DNA from: Eledone cirrhosa
Taxonomy: Eukaryota
NCBI GenBank assembly: GCA_964016885.1
Contig: OZ024740.1
Span: 372,186,001-372,250,000 of the forward strand
DNA: 64,000 bases
Reading direction: 5' to 3'
Below, one piece after another: positions 29,038-50,713 of the stretch (positions are counted from its first letter, which is position 1; each line of letters begins with the position of its first letter). The position numbers and the translations under genes are program-made. The notes under the pieces are model-generated. The model had not been told where the DNA came from. It saw nothing but the letters and a program-made list of their open reading frames with translations, and did not search any database.

Positions 29038-29173
29038 ATTATGAATGTAGAAAGGAAGTCCTTGAAAGGATTAAAATGCCATGTTCGTGCCACCCATGTA
29101 TGAGAAAAAGGTCAAAGGATAGCAGTTCTCAAAAACAAGATGGAGCCATTATATATGTATGTATGTATGTATG

Positions 29174-29207
<34 letters not shown>

Positions 29208-29234
29208 TGTATGTATGTATGTATGTATGTATGT

Positions 29235-31551
29235 ATGAGGAACTCAGGGATGTAAAATCACGTGTTAGGCGGAGTCTTTCTCAGATGAAGGATCAGTGGT
29301 GGAGTGAGAAGGCTGGTGAGATACAAACTGCGTCTGATTCCAATAACACAAAGCTGTTGTACAGTCTCTTGCGTGAGGTTTATGGACCGTCTTCTTCTCT
29401 GGTGACACCGCTTCGCAGCAAGGATAGCAAAGAACTTCTTTGTGACTCACAAGGAATTCTACGAAGGTGGCGAGAGCACTTTGATGATCTTTTGAATCAG
29501 CCGTCTGTCGTCAGTGAAGATTTCCTCAATCTCATTCCAGGAAGTCCTGTGAAAGTAGCTCTCGCAGAACCTCCGACGCTTGTGGAGGTTGCAATGGCTA
29601 TTTCGAAGCTGAACAGTGGAAGATCTCCAGGTATGGATGGCATACATGCTGAGCTCCTACAATATGGTGGTGAGAGACTTCTGCAACATCTTCACTCTTT
29701 GTTTGGCAGGATATGGGCTAAGGAATCCGTACCTGAGGACTGGAGAGATGCAGTAATGGTGGTCTTGTACAAGGGAAAGGGTAACAGGAACGTTTGTGGG
29801 AACTACAGAGGTATATCATTGCTTTCTGTCGTAGGGAAAGTTTTATGTAGGGTGCTTCTGGGCCGTCTGCTGACACACATTGCAGATTGTGTTCTTCCTG
29901 AAAGTCAATCTGGTTTTCGTGCTGGACACGGCACTACTGATATGATCTTCTCAGCTAGACAGCTCCAGGAGAAGTGCATGCAACAAGGCTTGGATCTGAA
30001 TCAGGTTTTTGTCGATCTGACAAAAGCTTTCGATACTGTTAACAGAGATGCATTATGGAAGGTTCTCCAGAAAATTGGTTGCCCTGATAAGTTCCTTGCT
30101 TTAGTTAGGTCTTTCCATGACGACATGAAGGCTTGGGTTAATGTCGGGGGTAACATGTCGGAGCCTATCTCAGTAAAAAATGGAGTGAAACAGGGGGATA
30201 TTCCAGCACCGACCCTGTTTGCCATATACTTTGTAATGGTTTTGTGTATTGCATTCAGGAATTGCGAGCATGGTGTTTACATCCGATATCGAACCTCAGG
30301 CAGCATATTTAACATCAGGCGCTTTGCTGCGAAGACAAAAGTATTTACATCAATCATAAGAGACCTCTTGTATGCAGATGATTGCGATCTTGTAGCGCAC
30401 ACAGAGAGTGATATGCAGCACATTTTGAATACATTTTCTGACGCTTGCACTGCCCTAGGTCTGACTGTCAGTCTCAAGAAAACCGTCGTCATGTACCAAC
30501 CTGCCCCTGGTAAGCAGTACACTGAACCAAACATCTATGTGTATGGCAAACGACTTGGAGTGGTTGATCAGTATGTCTACCTGGGAAGCACTGTCAATCG
30601 ATACAGCAACCTTGACAGTGAAATCTCACTTAGGATTAGGAAAGCAAGTGATGCTTTCGGAAAGCTAGAAAGGCGACTCTGGGGTCGGCGAGACATGTGC
30701 AGGAGGACAAAGGTAAAGGTGTACAGGGAATGTGTGCTCTCTTGTCTTCTTTATGCCTGCGAGACCTGGGTCACATATCGACACCACCTTAAGCAATTGG
30801 AGCGTTTCCATCAGATGTGTCTCAGACGGATCCATGGCGTTCACTAGAGGGACCACATCAGTGATGTCGAGATTTTGGAAAGCTCTATGTGTGACAGTAT
30901 AGAAGCTCTTGTGCTTAAGCAACGACTCCGTTGGAGTGGTCACCTTGCCGGGATGGAGGATTCTAGAATACCAAAACAACTCTTTTATGAAGAGTTGGTT
31001 AAAGGAAAACGACGCCACATAAACCAAAAAAGAGGTATAAGGATTCCTTGAAAGCCTCTCTGAAAGACGCTAACATCTCTGCTGATACATGGGAGAATAT
31101 TGCTGCTGATCGTAATAATTGGAGAAAGATTGTATATGAGGGAAAAGTTGCCTTTGAGGCTTCTCGAATCGCATACGAGAAAGTAAAGTGGGATGTGAGA
31201 AAGGGCATTACTGTTGCACTTCCAGACGGCGAGGGTCCTCCTATGGTGCTGACATGCAGTGTATGTGCGAGACTCTGCCTAAGCAAAGCTGGACTCGAAA
31301 GTCATCTTCGCAGTCATAAAGTAAGACCAGTGGTTGACTACCAGGCTGATGTTGGAGATGCTACTCATCATGCTTGCCAAACATGTGGTAGAGAATGTAA
31401 ATCAGCAGGAGGGCTCAAGCGACATGCAAAAGTACACGAACTCCAACCACAGCCGGCTATTCCCAGTGAATGTTTTGGTTGCCGACTCTGTGCAAGACAT
31501 TTTAGATCATTGGCTGGGCTAAAAAGCCACATTCGATCGCAGCGCTGTTAA
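29235..31551 (+). pseudogene. RTE RT ORF with three C-terminal C2H2-type zinc fingers
   Basis: TAG at 30845 where Trp is expected, and a frameshift near 31015. Fingers CSVC..HLRSH, CQTC..HAKVH and CRLC..HIRSQRC. The MYVC N-terminus in the ORF track is microsatellite. Confidence 0.92.
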
Positions 31552-31560: not shown

Positions 31561-31844
31561 TGTGTGTGTGTGTGTGTGTGTAGATATGCTTATGTGTGTG
31601 CGTGTGTGTGTATATATATATGTATATGTATATTATTATTGTTGTTGTCGTTATTATTATTGTTGTTATGATTATTATTATTATTATTGTTATTAATGTA
31701 TGTGTGTGTGTATATGTGTGTGTGAGTGTGTGTGTGTGTGTGTATATGTGTATGTATATGTGTATGTATATGTATATATATATATATTTCTTTTTTTGTA
31801 TTTTTATTTTCTTTTTATTTATTTATTTATTATTATTATTATTA

Positions 31845-34800
31845 CAGTTGCATTTATCTTGCTTTATGTTCATAGGAGTTATCACCAAGTCACAACCAGT
31901 GACCTCAAGAGACAACAAGGTCCGCCATGTTCAAGAAAGAACATACATACTCACACATGCATCTTTAGTGTTTAGACTTGTGATGTACTTATATTGACAG
32001 AATCTTCCTTAGTATATGGGCAGTTCCCATTAGTACTATCTTTTGTATTTCTCCTATACGCGGGTTTCCTGGGATTTGCGATAAAGTAATCATTAGACCC
32101 CTTAGGTATCATTCCCAGAGCGCCTACAACCACTGGTATTGTTTTAGTTCTCAATTTCCACATTATTCCAATTTCTATCTGCAGGTCCTTATGCTTGCTC
32201 AATTTTTCAAATGTTTTTATAGATACATTCTTGTCTATTGGAACAGACATATCAATTAGCAGGCATACCCTCTTTTGAAAGTCCTTCAATATTATATCAG
32301 GTCTATTTGCATCTATTTTTCGGTCTGTTTGGATGCTAAAGTTCCACAAGATTGAGATGTGATCTTTTTCAAGTATGGGAGGTGGTTGATGCTCCCACCA
32401 ATTCTTTTGATGGGGCAGATCAAAATGCTTACACATTATCCAATGTATGTATTGTGCAGCTCTGTCATGCCTGTTTACGTATTCGGTTGGAGCTATTGAA
32501 ATTATTATAACTGCACATTGAAATTATATGGTCAATGGTCTCTGGTTGTTTTTTGCATACACGGCATAATGGGCTGCATCCATTTTTTATTATGTTGGCT
32601 CGGTAATTTTTTGTTGGCAGACACTGATCTTGTGCTGATATAATCAGTCCTTCAGTCTCCGATTTCAGTCCAGAGGATGCCAACCACTGATGTGTTAAAG
32701 TTTTGTCAACATCAGGATTGTTAGCTCGCTCTGGGTATTTTCCATACAGAGGCTTTTCTTGCCATTTCTTAGCCAGTTTCTGTAGCAGTTCTTTCTTTGC
32801 AGTTACTTTTACCTGCTTTGCTTTTTCTGTGTTTTCCATTTCAGCAGTAAATGGGACTTCTGAAATTTGGAGTCCATTACTGTATCTTTGTGCATCTTTT
32901 GTAATGGAATATGATCTTTTGATGCTTTCGTGTTTCAAAACGAGTTTGATCATCCAATCATGTGATTCCCTTAGATATGTAGATAATCCAATTGTTGCAG
33001 TTTTCAACGCAATGTCTAACTGGATTAACCCACGTCCTCCTTCTTTCCTAGGGAGATATATTCTATCTATATCTGCCTTAGGGTAATGCATTCTGTGCAT
33101 GGTTAAGGATATTTTCGAATTTTTGTATCGAGCCTACGGATCTCTGTGCTTGACCAGTTGATGACATTGTAACTAGGTTACTACTGGTATGGCAAGCGTG
33201 TTTATGGCATCGATCCTATTCCTTGCATTCAATTCCGTTCTTAAGATTGCTCCTACTCTGCGGTAACATTCCTTCCTTATCCTTTCCCCCATTGTCGAGT
33301 GCTTGATTCCGTCTCCTTCACAAACACCTAGATATTGTAAGTTTTTTCTTGATCAAGTTCTCTTATCACGTTCCCCCGATCAAGATTAATGTCTGAACTC
33401 TTCAGCAGCTTTCCTCTGGTGAACGTTGCTTTGGCGCATTTATCTAGTCCAAACTCTATTTTAATGTCATCACTGAACTGCTCCACAGTGGATAATAGCC
33501 CTTGCAATTGTTCATCATTTTTTGCAAATAGTTTCAGGTCATCCGTGTAGAACAGGTGATTAATGGTTTTGTCATAGACTCTATATCCATGTTTTGTTTC
33601 ATTGAGCATTTTACTTAATGGTATAAGTGCGATGCAGAATAAAAGCGGTGATAAAGAGTCACCCTGAAAAATTCCACAATTAATATTAACTTCTCCAGCT
33701 TCCAGTGATTTTGTTTCACTATTCAAAAGGAGTGTCGTTTTCCATGTCTTCATACTGAATGACAAAAACCTCCTGACAACGGGGGATATTTTGAAAATCT
33801 CTAAACATTTTTCAATCCAACTGTGTGGCAAACTATCGAATGCTTTTTTATAATCTATCCAAGCAATCGATAGATTTTTGTGTCTATTATGACAATCTTC
33901 CAGTATCATTTTGTTAACTAGATGCTGATCCTTACAGCCATATGAGCCTCGTTTACACCCTTTCTGCTCAATGGGAAATAGGTCATTTGTTATCAGGTGG
34001 TCATATGTGTATTCAGTTAGGACTGATGTTAAAATTTTATACATTGTGGTCAAGCAAGTTATCGGTCTGTAATTTTTGGGATTGTTTGTCTCATCATTCT
34101 TCGGAAGCAGGAATGTAATGCCGTTAACTAGCCATGATGGTGTCTTTTCTGGCTCCTTAACTATTTCATTGTAAAGTTGGGCTAACAGCTCATGAGACTC
34201 TGTGAAGGCATTTATCCAAAAGTTTTGTATTTTGTCTTTTCCTGGGGATTTCCATTTGCTGGTTTTTCTTAGAGCGAAGGCGCAACTGTTCAACTGTTAT
34301 ATTTTCCCATATTTATTCCTCAAGGTGAGCTGTATCTTTCATTTGTCTGTCTATCCATGGGGCATGTATGTTATGAACTTTTTCTTCGGCCCAGATCTTT
34401 TCCCAGAATTCTTGCACTTCCTCCTTGGGTGGTATTGATTTAGCAGTTATTGTTGACTTACCAATTTTTCTGTAGAAGTTTCTTTGGTTGTTTTTGAACA
34501 TATTATTGTCCTTATAGAATCTAGATCGTTTTTCAAAGCGCCTTATACGAGCAGCTTTGGCCGACACTTTTTGCTTGATTATTTCTATCAGCATGTCTAT
34601 GTCACATTTTGATTTTATACTGTACTTTTTTTTCAATTTTCTAAGTTTAGTTTGTTTAACATGTTCACCTACTTTATAGTTTGTTAAAATTTCTATGTCA
34701 GATCGGAGAAGGTTTATTTGGCGATTGATGTTCTCTTGCCAAGTAGATTTCTTGTGGGAATTCCTTTGTTTTTTCATCTTCACTCCACATAAGTGAGTGG

Positions 34801-36726
34801 TGACTTTAGCCGATGCATAATAGAGATGATTTAAATCAGTAATGTTTAGTTTGTTTGTGATGATAATGTTTTTGAGAATTATGTTAGTCTTGTGTATTAT
34901 CTTTTGGCTCTGTTTGGAGTTCTGGATCTTAGGGAGGGTGTCTCGTTGCCCCATGTCAGATTCTTTCTTTTTCATCCATTCGATCATAATTTCATCCTTC
35001 AAGTTGGCAAGTTCATTCTCATTCATTTCTTTATTATTTACGATCTCATTATTTTCATTTGGAGTTTCATCCTGAGCATGCACTCCCTCCACTTTTTCGA
35101 TCCTTTCTTTAATTTGTTCTGTTGCCAGTGATTCCGCCCCAACCCTGGGATTCGAAGTGTTACAGTTTACCTCGTTTTCACTGACACATATTTCATTTTC
35201 CCTTCGCTGACTTTGTGCTAATAGCTTGATCTGATCAATTTCTATATCAGTTAGTAACTTTTTTCTTACAATATTTCTTCGTATATTGGCTAGTTTGTTA
35301 CTGTCAATATAGCCTCTGTTTTCGGGATGTTTCTTTTTCCAGTTGATATATGTCTGTTCTGTATTCGATGTATTTGATGGGTAGTACATGGCAGTGTAGA
35401 AAGCCTCAAGGAGTTCTTTATTATCTTCCCTTGACCATTTTTCTCTCTTTTTCTGTGGATTTCTTGGTGGTGAGCATGGAGGGCCAACAGTAGGAGTATT
35501 CCGGTTATGGGAGGTCTCCAGCTCCGAAGTGATGGTAAGGTTTGAACCATTAGCTGATTTTTCGACCCCATTCTGGTTCCTCTCTGAGGGACGCGGCCCT
35601 TTTTTACCCGGGTGACGGCCGATCCGGTATGAGATTTTATCATTAGACATTTACTTTATTTTGTCGCGTTTTATCCTTATACGCCAAGGGGTAATCATTT
35701 CGTGTTACCACTTCTAGAACGAGTGTCAACCAAGACTAGAGGGGTCGTTCTCCCCTAGAGACACGGCTATTCCCCGCCGGCCACCATCCCGGTATTTCTT
35801 GGTCACGGGGTTTTCTCTTTGTTGTTTTTTTTAAATTGTTATTATCATGAGTGGTTCCTTAATGTGAGCATTGCGTGGCTTAAGAATGAAATTATTAATA
35901 ATTGTCTCCACTCCAGGCACAAGGCCAGCAATCACCCAGTGCATTACAATAATATAATATACTTTTTGCTGAAGTTACCTGTTATTGTTGTTGGCTATGT
36001 CGGTGGTGGTGCCGGGGCTTTTTATATTGTTGGTGAGGAAGGGGTGAGCCAGCAGTCGCATAGTTGTTGATGTTGACGTTTGGCCGGTGGCCAGGTCACT
36101 AAGTCAATCTATTTATATCTTTTGCTAGCTTCTCCCTTGTCTAGTGATACCGCCACCTTCCCCTTTCTCTCTCAAGTTAACAGGGGAATAGTGGTGGTAG
36201 CAATGATGGGGTGATGGCGGCGGTGGCATTGTCATTACTGAGTTTTGTGATGTAGTATCTATGAGTTTGTGTTCGTATGTTTAATATATATTGTGTTGAC
36301 ATATTCCCGTAAAGTTGGGATTAAACATTTTGTTAAAACTTGAGACAATAATAATAGTAATTATTATTATGATGCTGGGATTGATGGTGGTGGTGGTGAA
36401 ATTGCCGTTATCTGGCTGTTATATTTAGTGTGATGGGATAGGTGGTGTATCAAGTTTCTGGTGTTGGTGAAATTGCTGTTATTTGGCTTTTCTATATAGT
36501 GTAGACAGAGGGTGTTTTCTTTCATTTATAACCATTTTCTTTTTTTGAATACAAAATATATAATACAAAATTGAATATTTGAGCGATATAACAATATAAT
36601 ATGGATCCGAAATTTTATGGGACTTCATTCGGTGGTTTATGCAACATTTGTACTAAGAATTGTTAAATATTTTAAAAATCAAAAACTTACGGGAGCGATT
36701 TCATGACCTTCTACCACCTCGTGCGT
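31845..36726 (-). mobile_element. R4/Dong-clade non-LTR retrotransposon, copy 1
   Basis: Single RT+REL ORF with a 3' end abutting (TAA)n on the element strand. Colinear with 45814-50713 over its whole length. Confidence 0.93.
31989..35650 (-). pseudogene. R4/Dong ORF (RT, CCHC finger, restriction-like endonuclease), frameshifted
   Basis: KWKSPGKD, NYRPITCL, WIDYKKAFDS, GIFQGDSLSP, FYTDD (FYMDD in copy 2), CRVC..ETIDHIISMC and RPDI..ID..K..K. At least four frame breaks. Confidence 0.93.

Positions 36727-36786: not shown

Positions 36787-36885
<99 letters not shown>
36727..36885. repeat. (TTC)n(TTA)n compound microsatellite between Dong and Tx1 elements
   Basis: Directly visible. Confidence 0.98.
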
Positions 36886-39857
36886 GAATGCCATGGTTGA
36901 CGGAGGCTCGGCTCTGTAAGGTATAGTAATTTTTAACCGTTAAAACAATTGTAAATTGTTTAAAACTTGAACCAAATTGTTGATAAAGACACCCTCCTCC
37001 TCCTGAGAGGGGTCTTTCTGTCCGTTATTTGGCCCTTCGGGGTTAAATAACCAGTTATTGGGGTTTTGTACCCAAAATTTCATTTTAAACAAAAAAACAT
37101 GGCTACGAAAAAGAAATTTCATACGTCACTCCCACTCATTCCGTCTTCTTCTTCCTCAATCATCACTACAGCAGAGAGAAGATTGTCTCTCTCCCTCCCT
37201 TCTTTAAATGTGTCTCTCTCCCTCCCTTCTCTTTCGCAAGCGACGAAAGAAAAGAAAAGTCTCGTGCAAAGCGTGCAAGGTTTCTCCACGACGACGACGA
37301 CAGCGACGAAACAGGTGTGCGGGAAATACGAAAACCCAGTTCATTCGTCTGACGTCAGGAATAATAGCAGTAGCAGCCGTAATAACAACAGCAACAGTGA
37401 CAATGAAAACAACAGTAGCAGCCGCAACAGCATCACCAGCAGCATAAACAACAACAGCATTAGCAGCAGCAACACCAACAACAACCACAGCAACAGCGGC
37501 GGAGGCAGTAGTCGTAGTACCTGCAGCAACAACAAAAGTACCAGCAGCTCTGACGACAACAACAACAGCAGAGAAAAACCAATCTCATTTGCAGGTATTG
37601 CGAAAAACTTGGAAACAATCCTCATAACAAATGAGGAATTAGAGGAAGCGAAGAAGATGGTGACAAAGAACGGACACCGAGCAATCTGCAAGGCAGCGGA
37701 AAAATTTTTCGAAACCCAAGAGCACTGTACGGTCACGTACCGTACAGTAAGTACAAAATCCCGTAGGGTGGAAAGAGCCACAGAGGCCCAAATACAAAAA
37801 GCCTTGGGGTCTGTGTGGCAGCGGAAAACGCACATCACCCGAGGCAAAAAATATGCCACCGTAGACGTACTTTTTGCCACACCCCAGGAGGCAAAGGCCC
37901 AATCAGTAATGACTCTAAGGAGCGAGGAAATGGTGTTGGTGCCCTCCTACTGTGGGCAAAAAATTGTGAGGGTCAAACTGACCCACGTCCCCCCCGGAAT
38001 GACCCCTTCTTGGCTGGCCGCGTCTGTCCTCGTCGGAATCGAGGACAAAACAACTGTACTGCAAGTACAGAAAAAAGTAAGAGAAGATTGGGTCGGCTCC
38101 TCCATTGAGATGCTAATCCAAATCAACCAGGAGTGCATCGAAGCTATCCCGGATGTGATAGACTTCGATAACGGCACTCAACTGCCCATAAGTGTTGAGG
38201 GCAAACGCCCGAAATGCTTTCGCTGTGGATCGAAGACTCACCTCAGGGCCTTCTGCAACGAGAAGACCCTGAGAAAGGAGAAAACCCCCCTCCTTCCGAA
38301 TCCGGCTCCACGGCTACCAGCAACAGGACAAGCGGCAACCAGGAACGATAGGCCCGTGGCACCCATACCCACTCCACGGAAATCAAAAACAGCAGCAGCA
38401 GTGGAAATACTAACAACAACAACAGCAATACCAAATGCAGCTGCAACAGAGACTCCAGTGCAAACATCACCAACAACAACAAGTGAAAGAGTGGAGCTGG
38501 TACCCCTCCCCGACCTCACAGAATCAGACATGGAGTGTGAGGTGGGAGAGAGATGGCAAAAGGTCGTAAGAAGGCACAAACGCAGAAGCAGCGCATCGTC
38601 GCCTTTGAAAAGGGAGGAAAGAAATGAGAAAAGGGTAAAGTCTACTGCAAAGAGACCCACAGCAGCAACAACACCAACACCATCACCACCCACACTAGCG
38701 CCACCATCACCACCGGCGACAACCCCACCGCCAACAACACCTTCAACACCACCACCACAAGCACCAACATCGCAAACACAACAACAAAACACACACACCC
38801 AGCAACAACGACAAGAAAATAGCAGAACCACACCCCACCCCCAGAAAAACAAATGCACGGCAATAAATACACACAACAAGAAACTGATGACTTACATAAT
38901 TGAACACACAGACATTTCACAACAGGACTACATAATACCAGCACCAATCAAAACGCCAACTAACATAAGACTGCTAAAAATAGCACAGAAACAATACACA
39001 AATATTAAAACGAAATTCCCCAACGCAGTTGGTGATTTCAGGGACCTAGAAGGAACCATCAATCGAAGAGTATACTCAGACATTCTCTTAGAAGAGCCGT
39101 CGACCAGCCGAAGGGACGATTCAACGGTCCCTTCACCAGACGATCAAGTGAAAAGGGATGTAAAAACCATCCCTCCTCTACCAAAAGTACGGTAAGTGGT
39201 CTTTCCCATCTTTTCCACTCTATTTTAAACATGACCTCACTCAGAATAGGCAGCATAAATGCGCGTGGCTTGGGGTCGTCATGGAAGCAGGGTCACCTGC
39301 TCAACGACCTCCTTCGTGAGGATTGCCCCGCCCTCCTCCTTTAGCCGGGAAGGGCAGGCAGTTTTTATCTGCCTGGTGGCCATGGTGAAAGAGATAGTAT
39401 GGTGGACACGTTTGAAAGGGCTGAAGACGAGCACTTACCTCTTCGGTGATGCTCTGATTGACTTTTTCAAATTTCATTTGAAAAGGAAAATCAGAGTAGA
39501 GAGGGAAGTGCTCTCTTCCCAGCATTTTGTTGAAAGATGGGTGAGAGAAGCAAGAATGGCCCGAGTGAATGGGCGTTCTCTGAGTATATATCTGTAAATT
39601 AAAGGTGGAAAACTGGGAGAGGGCACTTGCCTTGGTGGTCAGGGTCATTGTGGCTTTTTACTGGGATTTCTCCACAAATGTCCCTCCGAAGTCTACCCCC
39701 TATTGGGGAATTTTTCATTGTTATTTTCATTGTTATTTTTGTTACATCCTCTGTTTTTGTTTTTTTACACGCAGAAATGCCCATTTGTACCGTCCTGCAT
39801 TGTCCTGCACTGTCCTTAATGTCTACTTTATGTAAACCCTTGTGGTTAATAAAGAAA

Positions 39858-39859
<2 letters not shown>
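36886..39859 (+). mobile_element. Tx1/L1-clade element A: ORF1-only (HAL1-like) derivative with about 3.05 kb of ORF2 deleted
   Basis: Flanked by (TTA)n. The ORF2 start (39231-39311) is fused to the ORF2 end (39312-39597). The 3' UTR ends aataaagaaatc, as in element B. Confidence 0.9.
37099..39195 (+). CDS. Intact Tx1-type ORF1p (698 aa; low-complexity arms, conserved core, CCHC zinc knuckle)
   Basis: ATG in aaaaaaacATGGCT context and an uninterrupted frame. It contains CFRCGSKTHLRAFC (CX2CX4HX4C) and is homologous to element B ORF1. Confidence 0.88.
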   Translation: MATKKKFHTSLPLIPSSSSSIITTAERRLSLSLPSLNVSLSLPSLSQATKEKKSLVQSVQGFSTTTTTATKQVCGKYENPVHSSDVRNNSSSSRNNNSNSDNENNSSSRNSITSSINNNSISSSNTNNNHSNSGGGSSRSTCSNNKSTSSSDDNNNSREKPISFAGIAKNLETILITNEELEEAKKMVTKNGHRAICKAAEKFFETQEHCTVTYRTVSTKSRRVERATEAQIQKALGSVWQRKTHITRGKKYATVDVLFATPQEAKAQSVMTLRSEEMVLVPSYCGQKIVRVKLTHVPPGMTPSWLAASVLVGIEDKTTVLQVQKKVREDWVGSSIEMLIQINQECIEAIPDVIDFDNGTQLPISVEGKRPKCFRCGSKTHLRAFCNEKTLRKEKTPLLPNPAPRLPATGQAATRNDRPVAPIPTPRKSKTAAAVEILTTTTAIPNAAATETPVQTSPTTTSERVELVPLPDLTESDMECEVGERWQKVVRRHKRRSSASSPLKREERNEKRVKSTAKRPTAATTPTPSPPTLAPPSPPATTPPPTTPSTPPPQAPTSQTQQQNTHTQQQRQENSRTTPHPQKNKCTAINTHNKKLMTYIIEHTDISQQDYIIPAPIKTPTNIRLLKIAQKQYTNIKTKFPNAVGDFRDLEGTINRRVYSDILLEEPSTSRRDDSTVPSPDDQVKRDVKTIPPLPKVR

Positions 39860-39892
<33 letters not shown>

Positions 39893-40102
39893 GGCGACCT
39901 ACGTAGGAAATCGTATTATCGTGAGCTCCGCAAAGGTTTGTTATTTCCGTTTGTTTAAAAATTGCCATTTATGGAAAATTTTATTGTAAACTGTTTATAA
40001 GCACACATACATTGTTTTCCGAAAAGGACACCCAAAAAGATTGGGGCCTTGTGCCCAAAATTTTAACTTTTATTATTATCCAAAAATTTCTTTGAAAAAA
40101 AA

Positions 40103-42087
40103 ATGGCTAATTCCCCTCTGCACGAAGCAGCTAAAAGCCTTCCTCACAAAATAACACCTCACACCGACACCTCCATTGCAAATGTTACTACGTTTGCCAA
40201 CACAAAAAAAAAATATAAGCAGTAGCAATATTTTAAATTTGTCTCAGGCAGACATTCATTTCCCGCCATTACCAATGACTGCAGGTGTTAAACCCTCCAC
40301 CACCACCACCACCGCAACAACCACCACCACCACCACCACCGCGACAACAGAAACAAAAGAAGAAAAAAATAAATTAACTCGTGACGTCGAAATGAAATCA
40401 AGCAAAATGGACTCTTCCCCACCAAAGACGACTGACGTCACAACCACCACAACTGAAAATAAAATTAATATTAACGATAGCAACAACAACAACAATGACA
40501 TTATAAAACCGACCCTCAGTTTCGCCATCGTAGCAAAACAATTCGAAGCGTTCACGGTAACCCAAGAAGATTTAGAAAATGCCAAACAAATGGTAAAGAA
40601 AGATGGGTACAGGGTCAGCCTCACCCCCCCACCTAATAAAATGGAGCATCGGCGCCTGTGCACCGTGTCGTATAGAACAATAAATGTAAAATCGCGCCGA
40701 GTGGAACGGGCATCCGAGTCCCAAATCCAAAAAGCTTTGGGACATGTGTGGGCAAGAAAAACCCACATCAGACGTGGGCAAAAGTATGGAACCGTGGATG
40801 TGTTCTTTGAAACACCAGAGGAGGCTAGAGAACACTCCATGGCCCCATTAAAAAGTGACGACCTCACACTCGTCCCAAGCTATTGTGGCCAGAGACTCGT
40901 AAAGATCAGGGTGACCCACGTTCCACCGGCCATCGAAATTCCCTGGCTAATAGCGGCTGTCCTCACCGGCATCGAAGCCAACACGAAAATAATAGCAGTA
41001 GCAAAAGAAAAGCAGGAAGACTGGTCCGGATCTGGGATGGAGCTCCTGATCCAAGCGGACCAAAAAAGCATTGAGGAGATCCCAGAGGTAATAGACCTCA
41101 CTGACGGCAGCCACCTCACGGTAATTGTCGAGGGCAGAAGACCTAGGTGTGTCGTTTGTGGTGAAGGAACCCACCTAAGGGCTTTCTGCCCTCAGGCTAA
41201 AAGGTTGAGGCCACCTCTCCTACCCACCCCAGTGACAAAACCATCAACACCACCAGTAGCAGAGATGGCAGCAACAACTGTAGCAGCAACAACAGAAGCA
41301 ACTATAACAGCAACAACCCCAGCAACAGTAGCAAAACCAACACCACTACCACCACCAGCAAAACCAACACCACCACCACCCAACGCTTCAGAACTAGCAC
41401 CAGCGCCTACACCATCCACCACACCACAACCAAAACTAACGGCTGTGGAGGATTTTCCACTCCCCGGCCTATCACAACTGGAGACAGATTGTGACGACGA
41501 GGAGTGGGAAACGATATCCGGAAAAAAAAAAGAAACCAAAAAAGAAAAAATTCTCTTCCTTCCCCCTCCAAAAACAAAATACAGAGGGAAACAAATAAAC
41601 TAAGAAACAAAAAAGTTAGGACAGATATGCCACCATCCACACCAGCATCACCAACCCCATCAACCCAAACACCAACACCATCACCATCATTATCCCCAGC
41701 ACCACCATCACCTACACCACAAAATCACCAAAATTCGAAACAGAAACAAACCCACAACAAACGCAAACAAAACAAAACAACCAAAACGATACACACTACA
41801 CAGCATTAAATTTGAACAACAAGCAATTATTACACTACATCCAACACAACACCAGCATCACAGAAAAAGACTACACAACAACCCCAAAATTCACACCACC
41901 TCCACACATACAAATCACTCGCATCACACAGAAAACGTACATGACACTAAAACAAAAATTCCCCAAAGACATCGGAGACTTCCGACAAGCACTCTCCAGG
42001 AGGATTTATAAGGACATCCTTCCTGAGGAGGCCACAAACAGTGAAAAGGATGGAAAAGCCGTCCTTCCCCTACGAGAAGTAAGGTAA
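40103..42087 (+). pseudogene. Tx1-type ORF1 with frameshifts
   Basis: ATGGCT at 40103 and CVVCGEGTHLRAFC. Frame breaks near the A-runs at about 40205 and 41525, and near 41800. Confidence 0.85.
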
Positions 42088-42121
42088 GTGGTCTTTCCCA
42101 TCTTTTCCACTCCTTTTGAAC

Positions 42122-45100
42122 ATGACCTCACTCAGAATAGGCAGCATAAATGCGCGTGGCTTGGGGTCGTCATGGAAGCAGGGCCACCTGCTCAACGACC
42201 TCAGGTCACTAAACATAGATGTAGTGGCCATCAGCGAGACCAGAATCTCCGAAGCACAGGGTTTCGCACCGATCTTCGGCGGCTACGATGTGTACGCATC
42301 TCCCAGCCGTCCGGGATCGGGGGGAGGAGTTGCTGTGCTTTTTCGGAGAGGTTTGGATCTTGCCATACGGGCCATCTTCCTGGACCCAGAAGGTAAGTTG
42401 GTGGTGCTGGACGTGACCAACGGAGACGGGCAAGCTTTCAGGTTAGTGGCCGTCTATGCCCCGACAGGAGCAGGGCGGCCTGATTTCTTCCGGCGTCTGG
42501 AGACCTTTCTTGGAACGTCCCGCTCTTTAGTGTTAGTGGGCGACTGGAACGGGATCTTAGATGCACGCTGGGATTGTGTGGGATTAGTGGATAGGGAAGG
42601 AGGGTGAAAGAGTCTCACCAACCTGCTCAGACGTTTTGAACTGTCTGACAGGTACCGAATGGATTTCCCGAATGTACCAATGTGGACTTGGACAAATCGC
42701 AAAGGGTCATCCAGATCATATCTAGATAGAGTATTTTGTAGGGAAATAGATAGGTCTAGCATAGGCTGTCCACAATTCAAGATAGTCAGCTACACGGACC
42801 ACAAATTCGTGATCTGTGTGCTTGACTTAGATAGGCTTCATAGACGAGGACCCGGCTACTGGAAGCTAAACGCGTCCTTACCAGCGCGCAAGGCCTACAG
42901 AGACCGGATTAGCGAACTAGTTAAGCGGGCGTTGACGGGGGCCATCGTCAACAACAAGTGGTGGTTTGCTCTGAAAAGAGCAATTAGAATAGAGTCCATT
43001 AGGTTTAGTAAGACTTTAGCAATAGAGAAAAATAGAGCAGAGGGAGAATTAGTTAGAAAATTAGATGAGGCGCTTAGCAAAGGCATCGCGACCGACGTAC
43101 TTGCGGCGAAATTGGCCCTTGACCAATTCTTCAATGCAAAGCACGAAGGCTGCGTTGTCAGAGCTAGGGTGCGTGCTCTCAGACACGAGGGGACGAAAGC
43201 CGTTCAATGGGCCCGAGTGGCGGAGGCGCGTCGTGGCAACAAAGCCACGATCCGGTCTTTGGTGGACCACGACGGGCGTATGCTACTCGATCCCGGGCAA
43301 ATGTGTGAAGCTTTTCAGCGACACTTCGCTCAACTGTTCGGGGGCAGTGGCGGGCCGGATCGAGGGATGGACTTTAGTGTCTACCTCGACGGACTGCCGC
43401 GGCTTTCGGCCACTGAGGCGGAGTGTTGCGAAAAGCCGATAACAACCGCTGAAGTACGGGATGCAATGACTAGTTGCACAAGGGGCAAATCGCCTGGTTT
43501 GGATGGTCTGCCCTATGAACTTTACGTACAAATGCCAAACTTGTTCGGAGGCCTCTTGGCGGACGTCTACTGCAACTGGCAACAGAACGGGAGAATTCCC
43601 AGCTCTGTGAGCCGAGGAGCGGTGGCGCTGCTGAGAAAGGATCCGAACAAGGGGGATAACATAGATAATTTTAGGCCCATAACTCTGCTAAACACAGAGT
43701 TCAAGATTTTGGCCAAGGTGCTAGCAAAGAGGTTGGCGCTTGTCGTTGGTGGTCTGGTGGGAGAGGCACAGACATGCGCCATTCCCGACAGATCCATCCA
43801 CGACAACCTCCACCTCATGCGATACATCGTAGAGAGGGTAGCTAGGGAACCTGGCACGGGTGGGTCTTTGATCAATTTAGATTAGTCGAAAGCCTTCGAT
43901 AGGGTCGACCATCGTTACCTAGCGGCAGTCCTGAGGGCGGTTGGCTTTGGGCCCGTCTTCAGAGGCTGGATCGCTGCCATGCACAGCGACATCTGCTCTG
44001 TAGTGAGAGTCAACGGTCACCTTTCGGAACCGTTCAACATCATGCGCTCAGTCCGCCAAGGATGTCCCCTCTCGTCCCTATTGTACGTATTGACTCTCGA
44101 GCCATTACTGCACAAACTGGAGACGTTGAGGGGGGTCCCGCGCGAACTAGGATGCGGAAGATCCGTGTCAGCATATGCCGACGATGTCACCGTAGTGGTG
44201 TCGAGCGCCAAACACATCGAGGCGATCGGCACTACACTAAGAGAATACGAAGCGGTGACAGGAGCAATGATCAACCAGGAAAAGTCAGTGGGCCTGCAGC
44301 TCGGCACCTGGAGAGGCAGGTCCATGCCGTCCAACAGCGTCGTCGGGCGCTGGACGGACGGACCGGTTAAATTGCTAGGGGTCTGGTTCGGTCCAGACCT
44401 CCAGACGGACAAAAACTGGGACGAGGTGACGAGCAGGGTGGCTTCTCTCACCCAGAAATGGGCCGAGAGGAAGCTATCCCTGAAAGGTCGAGCGGAGGTG
44501 GCGAATGCGTACATCGCATCCGTCATCTACTACCGCCTGACCGTCGTACCTTGTCCTAAGCCCGGCCTGACTGCGCTGGAGCGTTTGCTCTTTCGCTTCT
44601 TGTGGAAGGGACGCGCTCCGATGGTCAGGCGGTCCATCTGCTGTCAACACCCGCTACGTGGAGGGCTGGGCATGCCGTGGCTGATGATGCGCAGACACGC
44701 GCTCAGGCTACGACATCTCCACCTTTTCCTCGACGGTGATCAGGTGTGGTCGCCGTTTGCAAGACACGTTTTTCCCCAGCTCGTCTCCTTGACGGAGCTG
44801 CAGTCCTGGGTCAAGCGAAGACCGAGAGGGAGCGCTTGGAGACTGGAATGTCTTCAGGCGCTCACAGCCCTCGACCAATCGGGCAATGTGATCGGTGGAA
44901 ACTCCACCTTGGCGTTCTATAGGGGATTAGTGGAGGGAAAGAGCGACGACGTACTTGGAGAAACTCTAGGCGTCGACGAAAATCAACTAGCCAATCTCTT
45001 CGGAAGGACTTTCGGGCCGGGGCCTATGGACAACTTCCAGAAATCCCTGGCCTGGCAGTGCTACCGAGGAGCTTTGCCAGTTCGGGATAAACTCTACAGG

Positions 45101-45540
45101 CATGGAGGTACCGTCAGACGGGCATGTCCGAGATGCGCGCAGGGCGACGAAACCGTCCTGCACGCACTCGTCCAGTGTCCGAGCATTGCTGACTTGTGGG
45201 TTTATGTCGACACCTGCTGTCACGTGTAGGACGGATCCAGCTATCAGCTGAGTCCATCGTGAGGATTGCCCCGCCCCCTTCCTTTAGCCTGGAAGGGCAG
45301 GCAGTTTTTATCTGTCTGGTGGCCATGGCGAAAGAGATAGTATGGTGGACACGTTTGAAAGGGCTGAAGACGAGCACTTACCTCTTCGGTGATGCCCTGA
45401 TTAACTTTTTCAAATTTCATTTGAAAAGGAAAATCAGGGTAGAGAGGGAAGTGCTCTCTTCCCAGCATTTTGTTGAAAGATGGGTGAGAGAAGCAAGTAT
45501 GGCCCGAATGAATGGGCCTTCTCTGAGTATGTGTCTGTAA
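42122..45540 (+). pseudogene. Tx1-type ORF2 (APE endonuclease + reverse transcriptase)
   Basis: SINARG, ISET, VYAP, GDWN, SYLDRV, TDH, WKLN, KSPGLDG, FRPITLLN, D*SKAFDRV, VRQGCPLS, YADD and CPRC..ETVLHALVQC. In-frame stops at 42605 (TGA) and 43883 (TAG), and a frameshift near 45210. Confidence 0.95.
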
Positions 45541-45782
45541 ATTAAAGGTGGAAAACTGGGAGAGGGCACTTGCCCTGGTGGCCAGGGCCACTGTGGTCTT
45601 TTAATGGGCTTTCTCCACAAATGTCCCTTGGAAGTCTCCCCCCTATTGGGGAATTTTTCTTTGTTATTTTATTTCAACCTCTGTTTTTTTTACACGCAGA
45701 AATGCCCATTTGTACCGTCCTGTATTGGCCTGTACTGTCCTTAATGTCTACTTTATGTAAACCCTTGTGGTTAATAAAGAAA

Positions 45783-45813
<31 letters not shown>

Positions 45814-45814
<1 letters not shown>

Positions 45815-48800
45815 TGCATTTATCTTGCTTTATGTTTATACGAGTTATCACCAAGTCACAACCAGTGACCTCAAGAGACAACAAGGTCCGCCATGTTCAA
45901 GAAAGAACACACATATTCACACATGCATCCTTAGTGTTTAGACTTGTGATGTACTTATATTGACAGGATCTTCCTTAGTATATGGGCAGTTCCCATTAGT
46001 ACTATCTTTTGTATTTCTCCTATACGCGGGTTTCCTGGGATTTGCGATAAGTAGTCGTTAGACCCCTTAGGTATCATTCCCAGAGCGCCTACAACCACTG
46101 GTATTGTTTTAGTTCTCAATTTCCACATTTTTCCAATTTCTATCTCCAGGTCCTTATACTTGCTCAATTTTTCAAATGTTTTTATAGATACATTCTTGTC
46201 TATTGGAACAGACATATCAATTAGCAGGCATACCCTCCTTTGAAAGTCCTTCAATATTATATCAGGTCTATTTGCATCTATTTTTCGGTCTGTTTGGATG
46301 CTAAAGTTCCACAAGATTGAGATGTGATCTTTTTCAAGTATGGGAGGTGGTTGATGCTCCCACCAATTCTTTTGATGGGGCAGGTCAAAATGCTTGCACA
46401 TTATCCAATGTATGTATTGTGCAGCTCTGTCATGCCTGTTTAGGTATTCGGTTGGAGCTATAGGACTGCACATTGAAATTATATGGTCAATGGTCTCTGG
46501 TTGTTTTTTGCACACACGGCATAATGGGCTGCACCCATTTTTTATTATGTTGGCTTGGTAATTTTTTGTTGGCAGACACTGATCTTGTGCGGATATAATC
46601 AGTCCTTCAGTCTCCGATTTCAGTCCAGAGGATGCCAACCACTGATGGGTTAAAGTTTTGTCAACATCAGGATTGTTAGCTCGCTCTGGGTATTTTCCAT
46701 ACAGAGGCTTTTCTTGCCATTTCTTAGCCAGTTTCTGTAGCAGTTCTTTCTTTGCAGTTACTTTTACCTGCTTTGCTTTTTCTGTGTTTTCCATTTCAGC
46801 AGTAAATGGGACTTCTGAAATTTGGAGTCCATTACTGTATCTTTGTGCATCTTTTGTAATGGAATATGATCATTTGGTGCTTTCGTGTTTCAAAACGAGT
46901 TTGATCATCCAATCATGTGATTCCCTTAGATATGTGGATAATCCAATTGTTGCAGTTTTCAACGCAATGTATAACTGGATTAACCCACGTCCTCCTTCTT
47001 TCCTAGGGAGATATATTCTATCTATGTCTGCCTTAGGGTGATGCATTCTGTGCATGGTTAAGAATTTTCGGATTTTTGTATCGAGCCTACGGATCTCTGT
47101 GCTTGACCAGTTGATGACATTGTAACTGTAGGTTACTACTGGTATGGCAAGCGTGTTTATGGCATCGATCCTATTCCTTGCATTCAATTCCGTTCTTAAG
47201 ATTGCTCTGACTCTGCGGTAACATTCCTTCCTTATCCTTTCCCTCATTGTCGAGTGCTTGATTCCGTCTCCTTCACAAACACCTAGATATTTGTATGTTT
47301 GTTCTTGATCAAGCTCTCTTATCACGTTCCCCCGATCAAGATTAATGTCTGAACTCTTCAGCAGCTTTCCTCTGGTGAACGTTGCTTTGGCGCATTTATC
47401 CAGTCCAAACTCCATTTTAATGTCATCACTGAACTGCTTCACAGTGGATAATAGCCCTTGCAATTGTTCATCATTTTTTGCAAATAGTTTCAGGTCATCC
47501 ATGTAGAACAGGTGATTAATGGTTTTGTCATAGACTCTATATCCATGTTTTGTTTCATTGAGCATTTTACTTAATGGTATAAGTGCGATGCAGAATAAAA
47601 GCGGTGATAAAGAGTCACCCTGAAAAATTCCACAATTAATGTTAACTTCTCCAGCTTCCAGTGATTTTGTTTCACTATTCAAAAGGAGTGTCGTTCTCCA
47701 TGTCCTCATACTGAATGACAAAAACCTCCTGACAACGGGGGATATTTTGAAAATCTCTAAACATTTTTCAATCCAACTGTGTGGCAAACTATCAAATGCT
47801 TTTTTATAATCTATCCAAGCAATCGATAGATTTTTGTGTCTATTATGACAATCTTCCAGTATCATTTTGTTAACCAGAAGCTGATCCTTACAGCCATATG
47901 AGCCTCGTTTACACCCTTTCTGCTCAATGGGAAATAGGTCATTTGTTATCAGGTGGTCATATGTGTATTCAGTTAGGACTGATGTTAAAATTTTATACAT
48001 TGTGGTCAAGCAGGTTATCGGTCTGTAATTTTTGGGATTGTTTGTCTCATCATTCTTCGGTAGCAGGAATGTAATGCCGTTAACTAGCCATGATGGTATC
48101 TTTTCTGGCTCCTTAACTATTTCATTGTAAAGTTGGGCTAACAGCTCATGAGACTCTGTGAAGGCATTTATCCAAAAGTTTTGTATTTTGTCTTTTCCTG
48201 GGGATTTCCATTTGCTGGTTTTTCTTAGAGCCAAGCGCAGCTGTTCAACTGTTATATTTTCCCATGTTTGTTCTTCAAGGTGAGCTGTTTCTTTCATTTG
48301 TCTGTCTATCCATGGGGCATGTATGTTATGAACTTTTTCTTCGGCCCAGATCTTTTCCCAGAATTCTTGCACTTCCTCCTTGGGTGGTATTGATTTAGCA
48401 GTTATTGTTGACTTACCAATTTTTCTGTAGAAGTTTCTTTGGTTGTTTTTGAACATATTATTGTCCTTATAGAATCTAGATCGTTTTTCAAAGCGCCTTA
48501 TACGAGCAGCTTTGGCCGACACTTTTTGCTTGATTGTTTCTATCAGCATGTCTATGTCACATGTTGATCTTATACTGTACTTTTTTTTCCAATTTTCTAA
48601 GTTTAGTTTGTTTAACATGTTCACCTACTTTATAGTTTGTTAACATTTCTATGTCAGATCGGAGAAGGTTTATTTGGCGATTGATGTTATCTTGCCAAGT
48701 AGATTTCTTGTGGGAATTCCTTTGTTTTTTCATCTTCACTCCACATAAGTGAGTTGTGACTTTAGCCGATGTATAATAGAGATGATTTAAGTCAGTAATG

Positions 48801-50713
48801 CTCAGTTTGTTTGTGATGATAATGTTTTTGAGAATTATGTTAGTCTTGTGTATTATCTTTTGGTTCTGTTTGGAGTTCTGGATCTTAGGGAGGGTGTCTC
48901 GTTCCCCCATGTCAGATTCTTTCATTTTCATCCATTCGATCATAATTTCATCCTTCAAGTTGGCAAGTTCATTCTCATTCATTTCTTTATCTTTTACGAT
49001 CTCATTATTTTCATTTGGAGTTTCATCCTGAGCATGCACTCCCTCCACTTTTTCGCTCCTTTCTTTAATTTGTTCTGTTGCCAATGATTCCGCCCCAACT
49101 CTGGGATTCGAAGTGTTACAGTTTACCTCGTTTTCACTGACACATGCTTCATTTTCCCTTCGCTGACTTTGTGCTACTAGCTTGATCTGATCAATTTCTA
49201 TATCAGTTAGTAACTTTTTTCTTACAATATTTCTTCGTATATTGGCTAGTTTGTTACTGTCAATATAGCCTCTGTTTTCGGGATGTTTCTTTTTCCAGTT
49301 GATATATGTTTGCTCTGTATTCGATGTATTTGATGGGTAGTACATGGCAGTGTAGAAAGCCTCAAGGACTTCTTTATTATCTTCCCTTGACCATTTTTCT
49401 CTCTTTTTCTTTGGATTTCTTGGTGGTGAGCATGGAGGGCCAACAGTAGGAGTATTCCGGTTATGGGAGGTCTCCAGCTCCGAAGTGATGGGAAGGTTTG
49501 AACCATTAGCTGATTTTTCGACCCCAGTCTGGTTCCTCTCTGAGGGACGCGGCCCTTTTTTACCCGGGTGACGGCCGATCCGGTATGAGATTTCATCATT
49601 AGACATCTACTTTATTTTGTCGCGTTTTATCCTTATCCGCCAAGGGGTAATCTTTTCGTGTTACCACTTCTAGAACGAGTGTCAACCAAGACTAGAGGGG
49701 TCGTTCTCCCCTAGAGACATGGCTATTCCCCGCCGGCCGCCATCCCGGTATTTCTTGGTCACGGGGTTTTCTTTTTGTTGTTTTTTTTAAATTGTTATTA
49801 TCATGAGTGGTTCCTTAATGTGAGCATTGCGTGGCTTAAGAATGAAATTATTAATAATTGTCTCCACTCCAGGCCAGCAATCACCCAGTGCATTACAATA
49901 ATATAATATACTTTTTGTTGTAGTTGGCTGTTATTGCTGCTGGCTATGTCGGTGGTGGTGCCGGGGCTTTTTATATTGTTGGTGAGGAAGGGGTGAGCCA
50001 GCAGTCCCATAATTGTTGATGTAGACGTTTGTCCGTGGCAAGGTCACCAAGTCAATCTATTTATATCTTTTGCTAGCCTCTCTCTTGTCTAGTGCTACCA
50101 CCACCTTCCCTTTTCTCTCTCAAGTTAACAGGGGAATAGTGTCAGTAGCATTGAATGAGTGGTGGCGGCGATGATGGATGTGGTGAGGTGGTGGCAGCGG
50201 TGGTGTTGTGGTTACTGATATAGTATCTATGAGTTTGTGTTCGTATGTTTAATATATATTTTCATTATATTTTGTGTTGACATATTCCCGTAAAATTTGA
50301 ATTAAACATTTTTTTAAATTTGAGACATTTTTTTAAATTTGAGACAATAATAATAGTAATTATTATTATGATGCCGGTGAAGTTGCCGTTATATTTAGTG
50401 TGATGGGATAGGTAGTGTATCAAGTTTCTGGTGTTGGTGAAATTGAAATTGCCGCTGTTCTATATAGTGTAGACAGAGGGTGTTTTGTTCCATTTATAAC
50501 CATTTTCTTTTTTTGAATACAAAATATATAATACAAAATTGAATATTTGAGCGATACAACAATATAATATGGATCCGAAACTTTATGGGACCTCATTCGG
50601 TGCCTTTATGCAACATTTGTGCTAAGAATTGTTCTTTCACAATTGATTTAAATATGTTAAAAATCAAAAAACTTACGGGAGCAATTTCGTGACGTTCTAC
50701 CACCTCGTGCGTC
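45814..50713 (-). mobile_element. R4/Dong-clade non-LTR retrotransposon, copy 2
   Basis: Near-identical to copy 1, with (TTA)n at both flanks. Confidence 0.93.
45955..49606 (-). pseudogene. R4/Dong ORF (RT + REL), nearly intact
   Basis: One frameshift at the T-run near 48585 and one stop at 46870. FYMDD, CCHC, RHD and PD..D..K..KY motifs are intact. Confidence 0.95.

What the first reader, a model, noticed from the sequence alone, without database searches (positions are those of the whole stretch)
36886..45784. ORF1-only (HAL1-like) Tx1 element carrying a swapped, intact ORF1 next to a full-length partner
Seen: elements A and B have nearly identical ORF2 termini and 3' UTRs; the 94-aa ORF2 tail differs at about 10 residues. 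Their ORF1 cores are only roughly half identical by eye, and their 5' UTRs barely align. A keeps a fully open 698-aa ORF1 but lacks the segment equal to 42203-45254 (3052 bp, 2-nt tc microhomology, out of frame). B has a complete but disrupted ORF2 and a frameshifted ORF1. Established: HAL1 elements are L1 derivatives encoding only ORF1p, and L1-like elements can replace their 5' modules. Inference: this is either a non-autonomous ORF1-only Tx1 family mobilised in trans, or a Tx1 family in which one ORF2 is used with interchangeable 5'UTR-ORF1 cassettes. The crossover lies at the ORF1 stop.
Basis: partly seen in the sequence, partly recalled or inferred. Interest (0 to 1): 0.75.

Follow-up and report, generated by a model that had tools for sequence, protein, structure and literature searches.

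The report
LINE families trade whole ORF1 cassettes
The short element is only a broken, one-off copy, but it belongs to a large family of jumping genes that aim at ATT repeats and that share one reverse-transcriptase gene with two very different front halves, and the donor of one front half is still in the genome, so these elements likely swap their promoter-plus-ORF1 module repeatedly, probably while being copied from RNA.

Summary
Element A is not an ORF1-only (HAL1-like) family: its junction occurs once in the genome, 29 of 29 other close ORF1 relatives run on into ORF2, and one-off internal deletions are common (21 of 100 copies). The swap is real. A- and B-type copies (45 and 55 of 100) share one ORF2 lineage (dS about 0.09) while their ORF1 cores are 54% identical with saturated dS. 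The donor family A0 exists (51 exact junction matches): A-type 5' half on an ORF2 18% distant. The crossover lies 15 codons before the ORF1 stop, out of register, exactly at a splice-donor-like motif of the donor. Four ORF1 types and three ORF2 lineages occur in six combinations, implying at least three swaps. All insert into (ATT)n and stack in tandem. Exchange of 5' modules is known for L1; here whole, deeply diverged ORF1s move recently with both parents visible. Splicing as the joining step is unproven: no spliced copies, no RNA data.

The parts
36817..36885 (+). (ATT)n target array in front of element A, preceded by a (TTC)n run
   Evidence: sequence; 89 of 100 sampled copies have a full 5' end on (ATT)n
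36886..37098 (+). A-type 5' UTR (same start as full-length A and A0 copies)
37099..39195 (+). A-type ORF1, 698 aa, open; low-complexity ends around a conserved core
   Evidence: 8-17 nt from 11 other intact copies
37582..38256 (+). ORF1 core: predicted tandem RRM plus one CX2CX4HX4C knuckle
   Evidence: alignment; model pLDDT 64; best fold match tandem RRM, E 8e-4, TM 0.28
39142..39157 (+). Swap junction of the A family (39148/39149): donor A0 sequence ends, B-lineage sequence begins, plus one extra G
   Evidence: shared by 44 of 45 A copies
39189..39197 (+). Splice-donor-like motif overlapping the ORF1 stop of A
   Evidence: sequence; present in 44 of 45 A, 51 of 55 B, 28 of 30 A0 copies; function untested
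39231..39311 (+). First 27 codons of ORF2 in A
39310..39313 (+). One-off 3052-bp deletion junction of A (out of frame)
   Evidence: unique in genome; length from intact copies
39312..39859 (+). ORF2 tail (last 94 codons) and 3' UTR of A, of A-family type
   Evidence: 98.9% to the nearest A copy, 92% to B
39860..39892 (+). (ATT)11 between A and B: tail of A and landing array of B (order of insertion not determined)
   Evidence: sequence
39893..40102 (+). B-type 5' UTR
40103..42087 (+). B-type ORF1, decayed in this copy (three one-base frameshifts); intact 661-aa copies exist elsewhere
42038..42089 (+). Point in B (42041/42042) at which the A0 cassette was joined, and B's splice-donor-like motif over its ORF1 stop
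42122..45540 (+). ORF2 of B: APE endonuclease, reverse transcriptase, zf-RVT; two stops and one frameshift; 1139 aa in intact copies
   Evidence: Pfam
45541..45814 (+). 3' UTR of B with AATAAA and (ATT)n tail
   Evidence: sequence; 82 of 87 sampled 3' ends run into (ATT)n

Best explanation
A is a single internally deleted copy, and B a decayed full-length copy, of two young families of (ATT)n-targeting, likely Tx1-type LINEs that share one ORF2 lineage but carry different 5'UTR-ORF1 cassettes, and the A cassette was likely captured from a third family (A0) still present in the genome, most likely by an RNA-level join during reverse transcription. Shown: the two cassettes, the shared ORF2, the donor family, the single out-of-register junction 15 codons before the ORF1 stop, insertion into (ATT)n and tandem stacking. 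Inferred: ORF2 nicks (ATT)n and copies the RNA from its 3' end; while copying a B RNA it reached the end of ORF1 and jumped (2-nt AG microhomology) onto an A0 RNA, giving a chimera with a working promoter, a complete foreign ORF1 and a complete ORF2, which then amplified to roughly two thousand copies beside B. Two further swaps (A cassette onto the C ORF2 lineage, D cassette onto the C' ORF2 lineage) are inferred from the same discordance. A's 3-kb deletion most likely arose after insertion by microhomology-type repair.
For: Junction of A unique. 29 of 29 other close A loci continue into ORF2. 4132 exact ORF2-start matches; first 100 on contig C1 are 45 A and 55 B. ORF2 A-B dS 0.088-0.097 in 16 pairs of intact copies; ORF1 core pS 0.79, saturated. 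Median p-distances ORF1 core / ORF2: A-B 0.414/0.045; A-A0 0.076/0.177; A0-C 0.307/0.079; C'-D 0.297/0.087; C-C' 0.121/0.114 (43 of 47 rows kept). Old A and old B copies share one ORF2 haplotype at 113 diagnostic sites; the oldest B copies branch below all A; B alone as a clade in ORF2 is rejected, p-AU 0.0035. Donor junction with native continuation: 143 matches with up to 2 mismatches, 51 exact; 30 of 30 read carry A-type DNA upstream, 28 a C-like ORF2. Deletions in 7 of 63 young against 14 of 37 older copies, p 0.002. The A junction is spanned by a contig of a second sample (record 9).
Against: The joining step itself is not observed; template switching, splicing and DNA recombination leave similar scars. 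The unrooted ORF1 topology test was uninformative (A+B already one side, 73/44), so the case rests on distances and on the donor, and the AU groups were named after earlier trees had been seen. ORF2 carries many short conversion-like tracts and some A0 rows are mosaics (L304, L307, L292), so ORF2 trees are approximate. The sample of 100 is the first 64 Mb of one contig and needs an exact ORF2-start motif. Tx1 membership was not tested against named Tx1 references.
Confidence: 0.88

Rival explanations
1. Same families and same swap, but the joining step was splicing: a read-through RNA from an A0 copy into a tandem B copy (or two RNAs in trans) was spliced from the donor motif at the A0 ORF1 end to a cryptic AG in B's ORF1 end, then retrotransposed.
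For: The join falls exactly at AAG|GTAAGT of A0 and just after CAG in B; the motif occurs once in a 6-kb A element and is kept in all families although the stop codon is read in two different frames through it; 29 of 89 full-length copies sit directly behind another element's 3' end; no intermediate that keeps the native stop was found. L1 chimeras joined at splice sites are reported (10.1101/2025.02.02.635956, passages).
Against: One event, noticed after the fact. An AG microhomology gives the same scar. B has no clear pyrimidine tract before the AG. No genomic copy spliced at this donor: 5 B-type hits were all small indels, 0 A-type, 0 C-type (each pattern sees about half of possible acceptors). 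The other two crossovers are in register and elsewhere (about +250 to +350 in ORF2 for A0/C; about -100 to +100 for C'/D).
Confidence: 0.2
2. The chimera arose between genomic DNA copies (recombination, gene conversion, or a deletion across an A0-B tandem pair), or by a 5'-truncated B copy landing at the end of an A0 ORF1.
For: Tandem arrays of mixed families are common; microhomology deletions are frequent in these elements; conversion-like tracts are visible. Insertion of a truncated element behind a foreign ORF1 is a published proposal (PMC4120745, section 13).
Against: Both partners must be intact; this argument against DNA-level origin is made for L1 (PMC3600994, passages). Strict (ATT)n targeting makes landing inside ORF1 unlikely.
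Confidence: 0.3
3. A is the type copy of a non-autonomous ORF1-only (HAL1-like) family moved in trans.
For: A keeps its 5' UTR, an open ORF1, 3' UTR and tail, so it could in principle be moved.
Against: Junction found once; none of 100 plus 35 sampled copies has it or another shared ORF1-only structure; an open ORF1 is usual in A copies (24 of 49); private changes 4 non-synonymous to 1 synonymous.
Confidence: 0.03
4. No swap: ORF1 simply evolves much faster than ORF2.
For: ORF1 core distances are 1.5 to 2.5 times ORF2 distances in several comparisons.
Against: The A-B ratio is 8-9, synonymous sites are saturated, and A0 shows the mirror pattern (ORF1 0.076, ORF2 0.177).
Confidence: 0.02

Closest known systems
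Tx1-clade microsatellite-targeting LINEs (Kibi, Koshi, crocodilian Tx1 families)
   Same: Two ORFs, APE endonuclease-RT-zinc finger ORF2, RRM/CCHC ORF1, strict insertion into a microsatellite (PMC4494074 and PMC3812793, passages; PMC5203782, passages).
   Different: Target is (ATT)n/(TAA)n; the passages read list (TC)n, (TTC)n, (TTCC)n, (TTTC)n for Tx1 and give TAA only for Dong. Host appears to be an octopod (closest named ORF2 relative Argonauta hians, 73%). L1-Tx1 families are counted in an octopus repeat survey without description of ORF1 or target in the passages seen (PMC13282606; supplement not read).
Recombinant mouse L1 families (Tf, Gf) and 5' UTR recruitment in mammalian L1
   Same: New families made by joining one family's 5' part (5' UTR, ORF1) to another's ORF2; families with different 5' ends coexist; template switching is a proposed cause (PMC3600994, abstract and passages; PMC5872511, passages).
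   Different: There the exchanged ORF1s come from one rodent L1 lineage and the described breakpoints lie inside ORF2 or the coiled coil; here complete ORF1s only 54% identical in the core are exchanged, the join is out of register at the ORF1 end, and one cassette has moved twice.
Reticulate ORF1 evolution in CR1/L2 elements
   Same: Whole ORF1s transferred between lineages while ORF2 evolves tree-like (PMC4120745, abstract and section 13).
   Different: Those are old events inferred from domain types; here donor, recipient, product and breakpoint are all present in one genome.
HAL1 (half-L1)
   Same: A keeps only ORF1 between 5' and 3' ends (definition from PMC5753468, passage; the primary HAL1 paper was not held).
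   Different: HAL1 is a multi-copy family; A's structure occurs once.

Membership tests
HAL1-like ORF1-only family | Encodes only ORF1p | tested here: met
HAL1-like ORF1-only family | Amplified as a family: same junction at many loci | tested here: not met
   1 match, also with 2 mismatches
HAL1-like ORF1-only family | ORF1 kept under selection after loss of ORF2 | tested here: not met
   5 private changes, 4 non-synonymous; few sites, weak test
L1/Tx1 group | ORF2 with N-terminal APE endonuclease, RT and C-terminal zinc finger | tested here: met
   PF03372, PF00078, PF13966; best solved match human L1 ORF2p E 1.5e-52 against R2 1.8e-21
Tx1 clade | Type I ORF1 (RRM plus CCHC knuckle) rather than Transposase_22 | tested here: met
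   knuckle in sequence; no Transposase_22 hit; tandem-RRM fold matches at modest confidence
Tx1 clade | Target-sequence preference | tested here: met
   (ATT)n at 89 of 100 5' ends and 82 of 87 3' ends
Tx1 clade | RT groups with named Tx1 references (Tx1, Keno, Kibi, Koshi) in a tree | not testable with these tools
   no named Tx1 reference among the hits or cluster members
Recombinant LINE family (5' module capture) | Discordant ancestry on either side of one shared breakpoint, both parents identified | tested here: met
Spliced retrotransposed chimera | Donor and acceptor used in RNA | tested here: inconclusive
   motifs fit; no spliced genomic copies; no RNA run listed

The most novel reading that the evidence does not exclude
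A splice donor conserved over the ORF1 stop of these LINEs turns 5'UTR-ORF1 into an exon-like cassette: in tandem (ATT)n arrays it can be spliced onto the ORF2 of a different family, so that splicing itself founds new autonomous retrotransposon families.
Probability: 0.2. Interest if true: 0.72.

Novelty: new variant of a known kind. Interest (0 to 1): 0.47.

Why it matters
Exchange of 5' modules is thought to let LINE lineages escape host silencing and coexist, but the events are usually inferred long after the fact. Here donor, recipient, product and base-exact breakpoint are all in one genome, with thousands of young copies and intact members of both A and B. It shows that one ORF2p works with ORF1ps only about half identical, and gives natural chimeras for testing ORF1-ORF2 compatibility and whether a new 5' module drives a burst. 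It also adds (ATT)n to the microsatellite targets of APE-type elements in the papers read, a ready case for how an APE endonuclease reads a repeat.

Tried and rejected
HAL1-like family: rejected. A as a recombinant with its neighbour B: rejected, its tail is A-family. B family as ORF1-defective and dependent on A: rejected, breaks differ from copy to copy and three intact 661-aa ORF1s were found (4 open of 52 scored, one with an internal deletion). Spliced retrocopies at the ORF1-end donor: none. Intermediate keeping the donor's stop: none. RNA: no RNA holder listed; contigs of four runs of unknown kind showed no joint at the donor among the joints listed (most joints not shown) and no listed contig bridged A's deletion, so the deletion is not checked against reads. 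The A-type ORF1 end had no cover in runs X5 and X6; this is not used as evidence. Word-based homolog search with the ORF1 core found nothing; the profile search found 541 unnamed relatives at E up to 0.001, not followed. Pfam names nothing in ORF1. B_L096 and D_L230 have long ORF1 branches because of truncation or deletion and were left out of later trees. Earlier findings of this scan: none returned. Literature searches listed no paper on ORF1 exchange among Tx1 families or on an (ATT)n-targeting Tx1; Repbase and subscription journals are not searched, so a catalogue entry may exist.
Full report
Observation. The window holds two head-to-tail non-LTR elements separated by (ATT)11. A (36886-39859) has an open 698-aa ORF1, 27 codons of ORF2, then the last 94 codons of ORF2 and a 3' UTR. 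B (39893-45784) is full length, with three one-base frameshifts in ORF1 and two stops and a frameshift in ORF2. Shared parts are 92% identical; ORF1 cores are 54% identical in protein; 5' UTRs do not align. The missing piece is 3052 bp; the proposed TC microhomology needs one extra mismatch.

What the elements are. ORF2 has APE endonuclease, RT and zf-RVT domains, is 1139 aa in intact copies, and its best solved relative is human L1 ORF2p. The ORF1 core ends in a CX2CX4HX4C knuckle; a model of modest quality (mean pLDDT 64) matches tandem RRMs (best E 8e-4). RRM plus CCHC is the type I ORF1 described as consistent with Tx1 (PMC5203782, passages). The closest named ORF2 relative is from Argonauta hians (73%). 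Copies land in (ATT)n: 89 of 100 sampled copies have a full 5' end on such an array, 82 of 87 3' ends run into one, and 29 of the 89 sit directly behind another element's 3' end. I file them as L1/Tx1-group, Tx1-like; a tree with named Tx1 references could not be made.

A is not a family. Its junction matches once in 3.0 Gb, exactly and with two mismatches. Of 30 loci fetched from the 40 best ORF1 matches, the 29 outside the window all continue into ORF2. The ORF2 start motif has 4132 exact matches; I read the first 100 on contig C1: 45 A-type, 55 B-type, none with A's deletion. Because an ORF1-only family could lack that motif, I also took a degenerate ORF1 motif (5455 matches) and read the 35 of its first 100 hits that were not paired with the ORF2 motif: their deletions all differ. 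Internal deletions of 50 bp or more occur in 21 of 100 copies, 23 events, no two with identical ends (one pair within 6 and 4 bases), most with 1-8 bases of overlap; L150 is another A copy lacking most of ORF2. They are commoner in older copies (14 of 37 against 7 of 63, p 0.002), so they likely arise after insertion. An open ORF1 is usual for A (24 of 49 scored), and A's five private changes are four non-synonymous and one synonymous. A's tail is 98.9% identical to the nearest A copy.

The swap is real. Between intact A and B copies ORF2 has dS 0.088-0.097 and 96-97% protein identity, while the ORF1 core is saturated (pS 0.79); against a third family C, ORF2 dS is 0.43-0.57 but A's ORF1 is closer to C (66%) than to B (54%). 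At 113 sites fixed between young A and young B, the oldest A and oldest B copies show the same mixed haplotype, and several copies carry tracts of the other type. In ORF2 trees A nests among B, with the oldest B copies basal; in ORF1 trees A, B, C and D are each one side of a 99-100% branch. Holding B together in ORF2 is rejected (p-AU 0.0035, groups named after earlier trees); the unrooted ORF1 test was uninformative.

Breakpoint and donor. C- and D-type ORF1s end ...GATCAAG|GTAAGTGA; B reads ...CAAGCAG|TGAAAAGG forty bases before its stop; A reads GATCAAG then TGAAAAGG with one extra G, in 44 of 45 copies. The join is out of register and duplicates the C-terminal motif of ORF1. This predicted a donor with an A-type ORF1 and the native continuation. 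It exists: 143 matches with up to two mismatches, 51 exact (some two-mismatch rows may be mutated A copies). All 30 read carry A-type DNA upstream; 28 have a C-like ORF2, L283 switches to B-like ORF2 (a separate recombinant), L266 is short. Twenty were read in full and begin with the A-type 5' end on (ATT)n where complete. Median p-distances (ORF1 core / ORF2; 43 of 47 rows, L290, L300, L305, L308 left out): A-B 0.414/0.045, A-A0 0.076/0.177, A0-C 0.307/0.079, C-C' 0.121/0.114, C'-D 0.297/0.087. D has 48 motif matches, 20 read. Six combinations of four ORF1 types and three ORF2 lineages form a chain (B, A | A0, C | C', D) that needs at least three swaps; the other two crossovers lie about 250-350 bases into ORF2 (A0/C) and within about 100 bases of the ORF2 start (C'/D). 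Directions other than A0 to B are inferred from distances only.

How it likely works. Established (own knowledge of target-primed reverse transcription): ORF2p nicks the target and copies the RNA from its 3' end. Inferred: a jump from a B RNA to an A0 RNA at a 2-base AG overlap made a chimera with a working promoter, complete ORF1 and complete ORF2, which amplified; about 45% of 4132 motif-bearing copies are A-type if the sample is typical. I put template switching at about 0.5, DNA-level joining at about 0.3, splicing at about 0.2. The splice idea rests on the join falling exactly at a donor-like motif that is kept in all families through two reading frames and occurs once in a 6-kb A element; against it, no spliced genomic copy and no RNA data.

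Comparison. 5' UTR recruitment and inter-family recombination in ORF1, ORF2 and 3' UTR are described for mouse L1, with the same three mechanisms discussed (PMC3600994, abstract and passages) and once for horse L1 (PMC5872511, passages); transfer of whole ORF1s is inferred for CR1/L2 (PMC4120745, abstract and section 13); splice-joined L1 chimeras with host exons are reported (10.1101/2025.02.02.635956, passages); HAL1 is defined in PMC5753468 (passages); microsatellite targets of Tx1 families are listed in PMC4494074 and PMC3812793 (passages). Searches listed nothing on ORF1 exchange among Tx1 families or an (ATT)n-targeting Tx1; Repbase, subscription journals and the supplement of PMC13282606 (passages only) were not seen.

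Verdict. The ORF1-only family is refuted; the cassette swap is established with donor and breakpoint. New variant of a known kind; interest 0.47.

Noticed in passing
window 31832-35900 and 45800-49856, minus strand: Two 97% identical RT elements with a C-terminal zinc-finger and a PD-(D/E)xK-like stretch flank the A-B pair; each ends at an (ATT)n array in the opposite orientation. They look like Dong/R4 (label from recall; Dong targets TAA repeats), so two unrelated LINE groups share the same arrays.
   Followed up: partly
window 29123-31551, plus strand: RT element with C-terminal C2H2 zinc fingers, RTE-like by recall.
   Followed up: partly
window 39189-39197 and 42081-42089; all families read: A splice-donor-like motif lies 40 bases before the ORF2 start in every family, with the ORF1 stop read as TAA in A/B and as TGA in another frame in C/D/A0; it may bind U1 or make an ORF1-only mRNA.
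   Followed up: partly
L283/L305 (G000:C3:75808912-75815412): A0-type 5' half and ORF2 start followed by B-like ORF2: an independent A0/B recombinant with a different crossover.
   Followed up: no
L120, L190, L150, L101, L183, L106: Copies with tracts of the other lineage's ORF2 or 3' UTR, pointing to continuing conversion or recombination between A and B.
   Followed up: no
L176, L177, L178, L191: A copies with an older 5' half (87-96% to the window's A) on a young ORF2, suggesting exchange within the A family too.
   Followed up: no
L063-L192 B-type copies: B-type ORF1 is open far less often (4 of 52) than A-type (24 of 49), with many breaks in A-runs; age, slippage or assembly errors could each contribute.
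   Followed up: partly
L193, L194, L196, L107: 5'-truncated relatives with ORF2 63-75% identical in protein to A/B: further families whose ORF1 was not recovered.
   Followed up: no
G000:C1:55423161-55456278 and 56163045-56182315: Runs of three to five tandem young A copies with about 6-7 kb spacing, several with both ORFs open.
   Followed up: no
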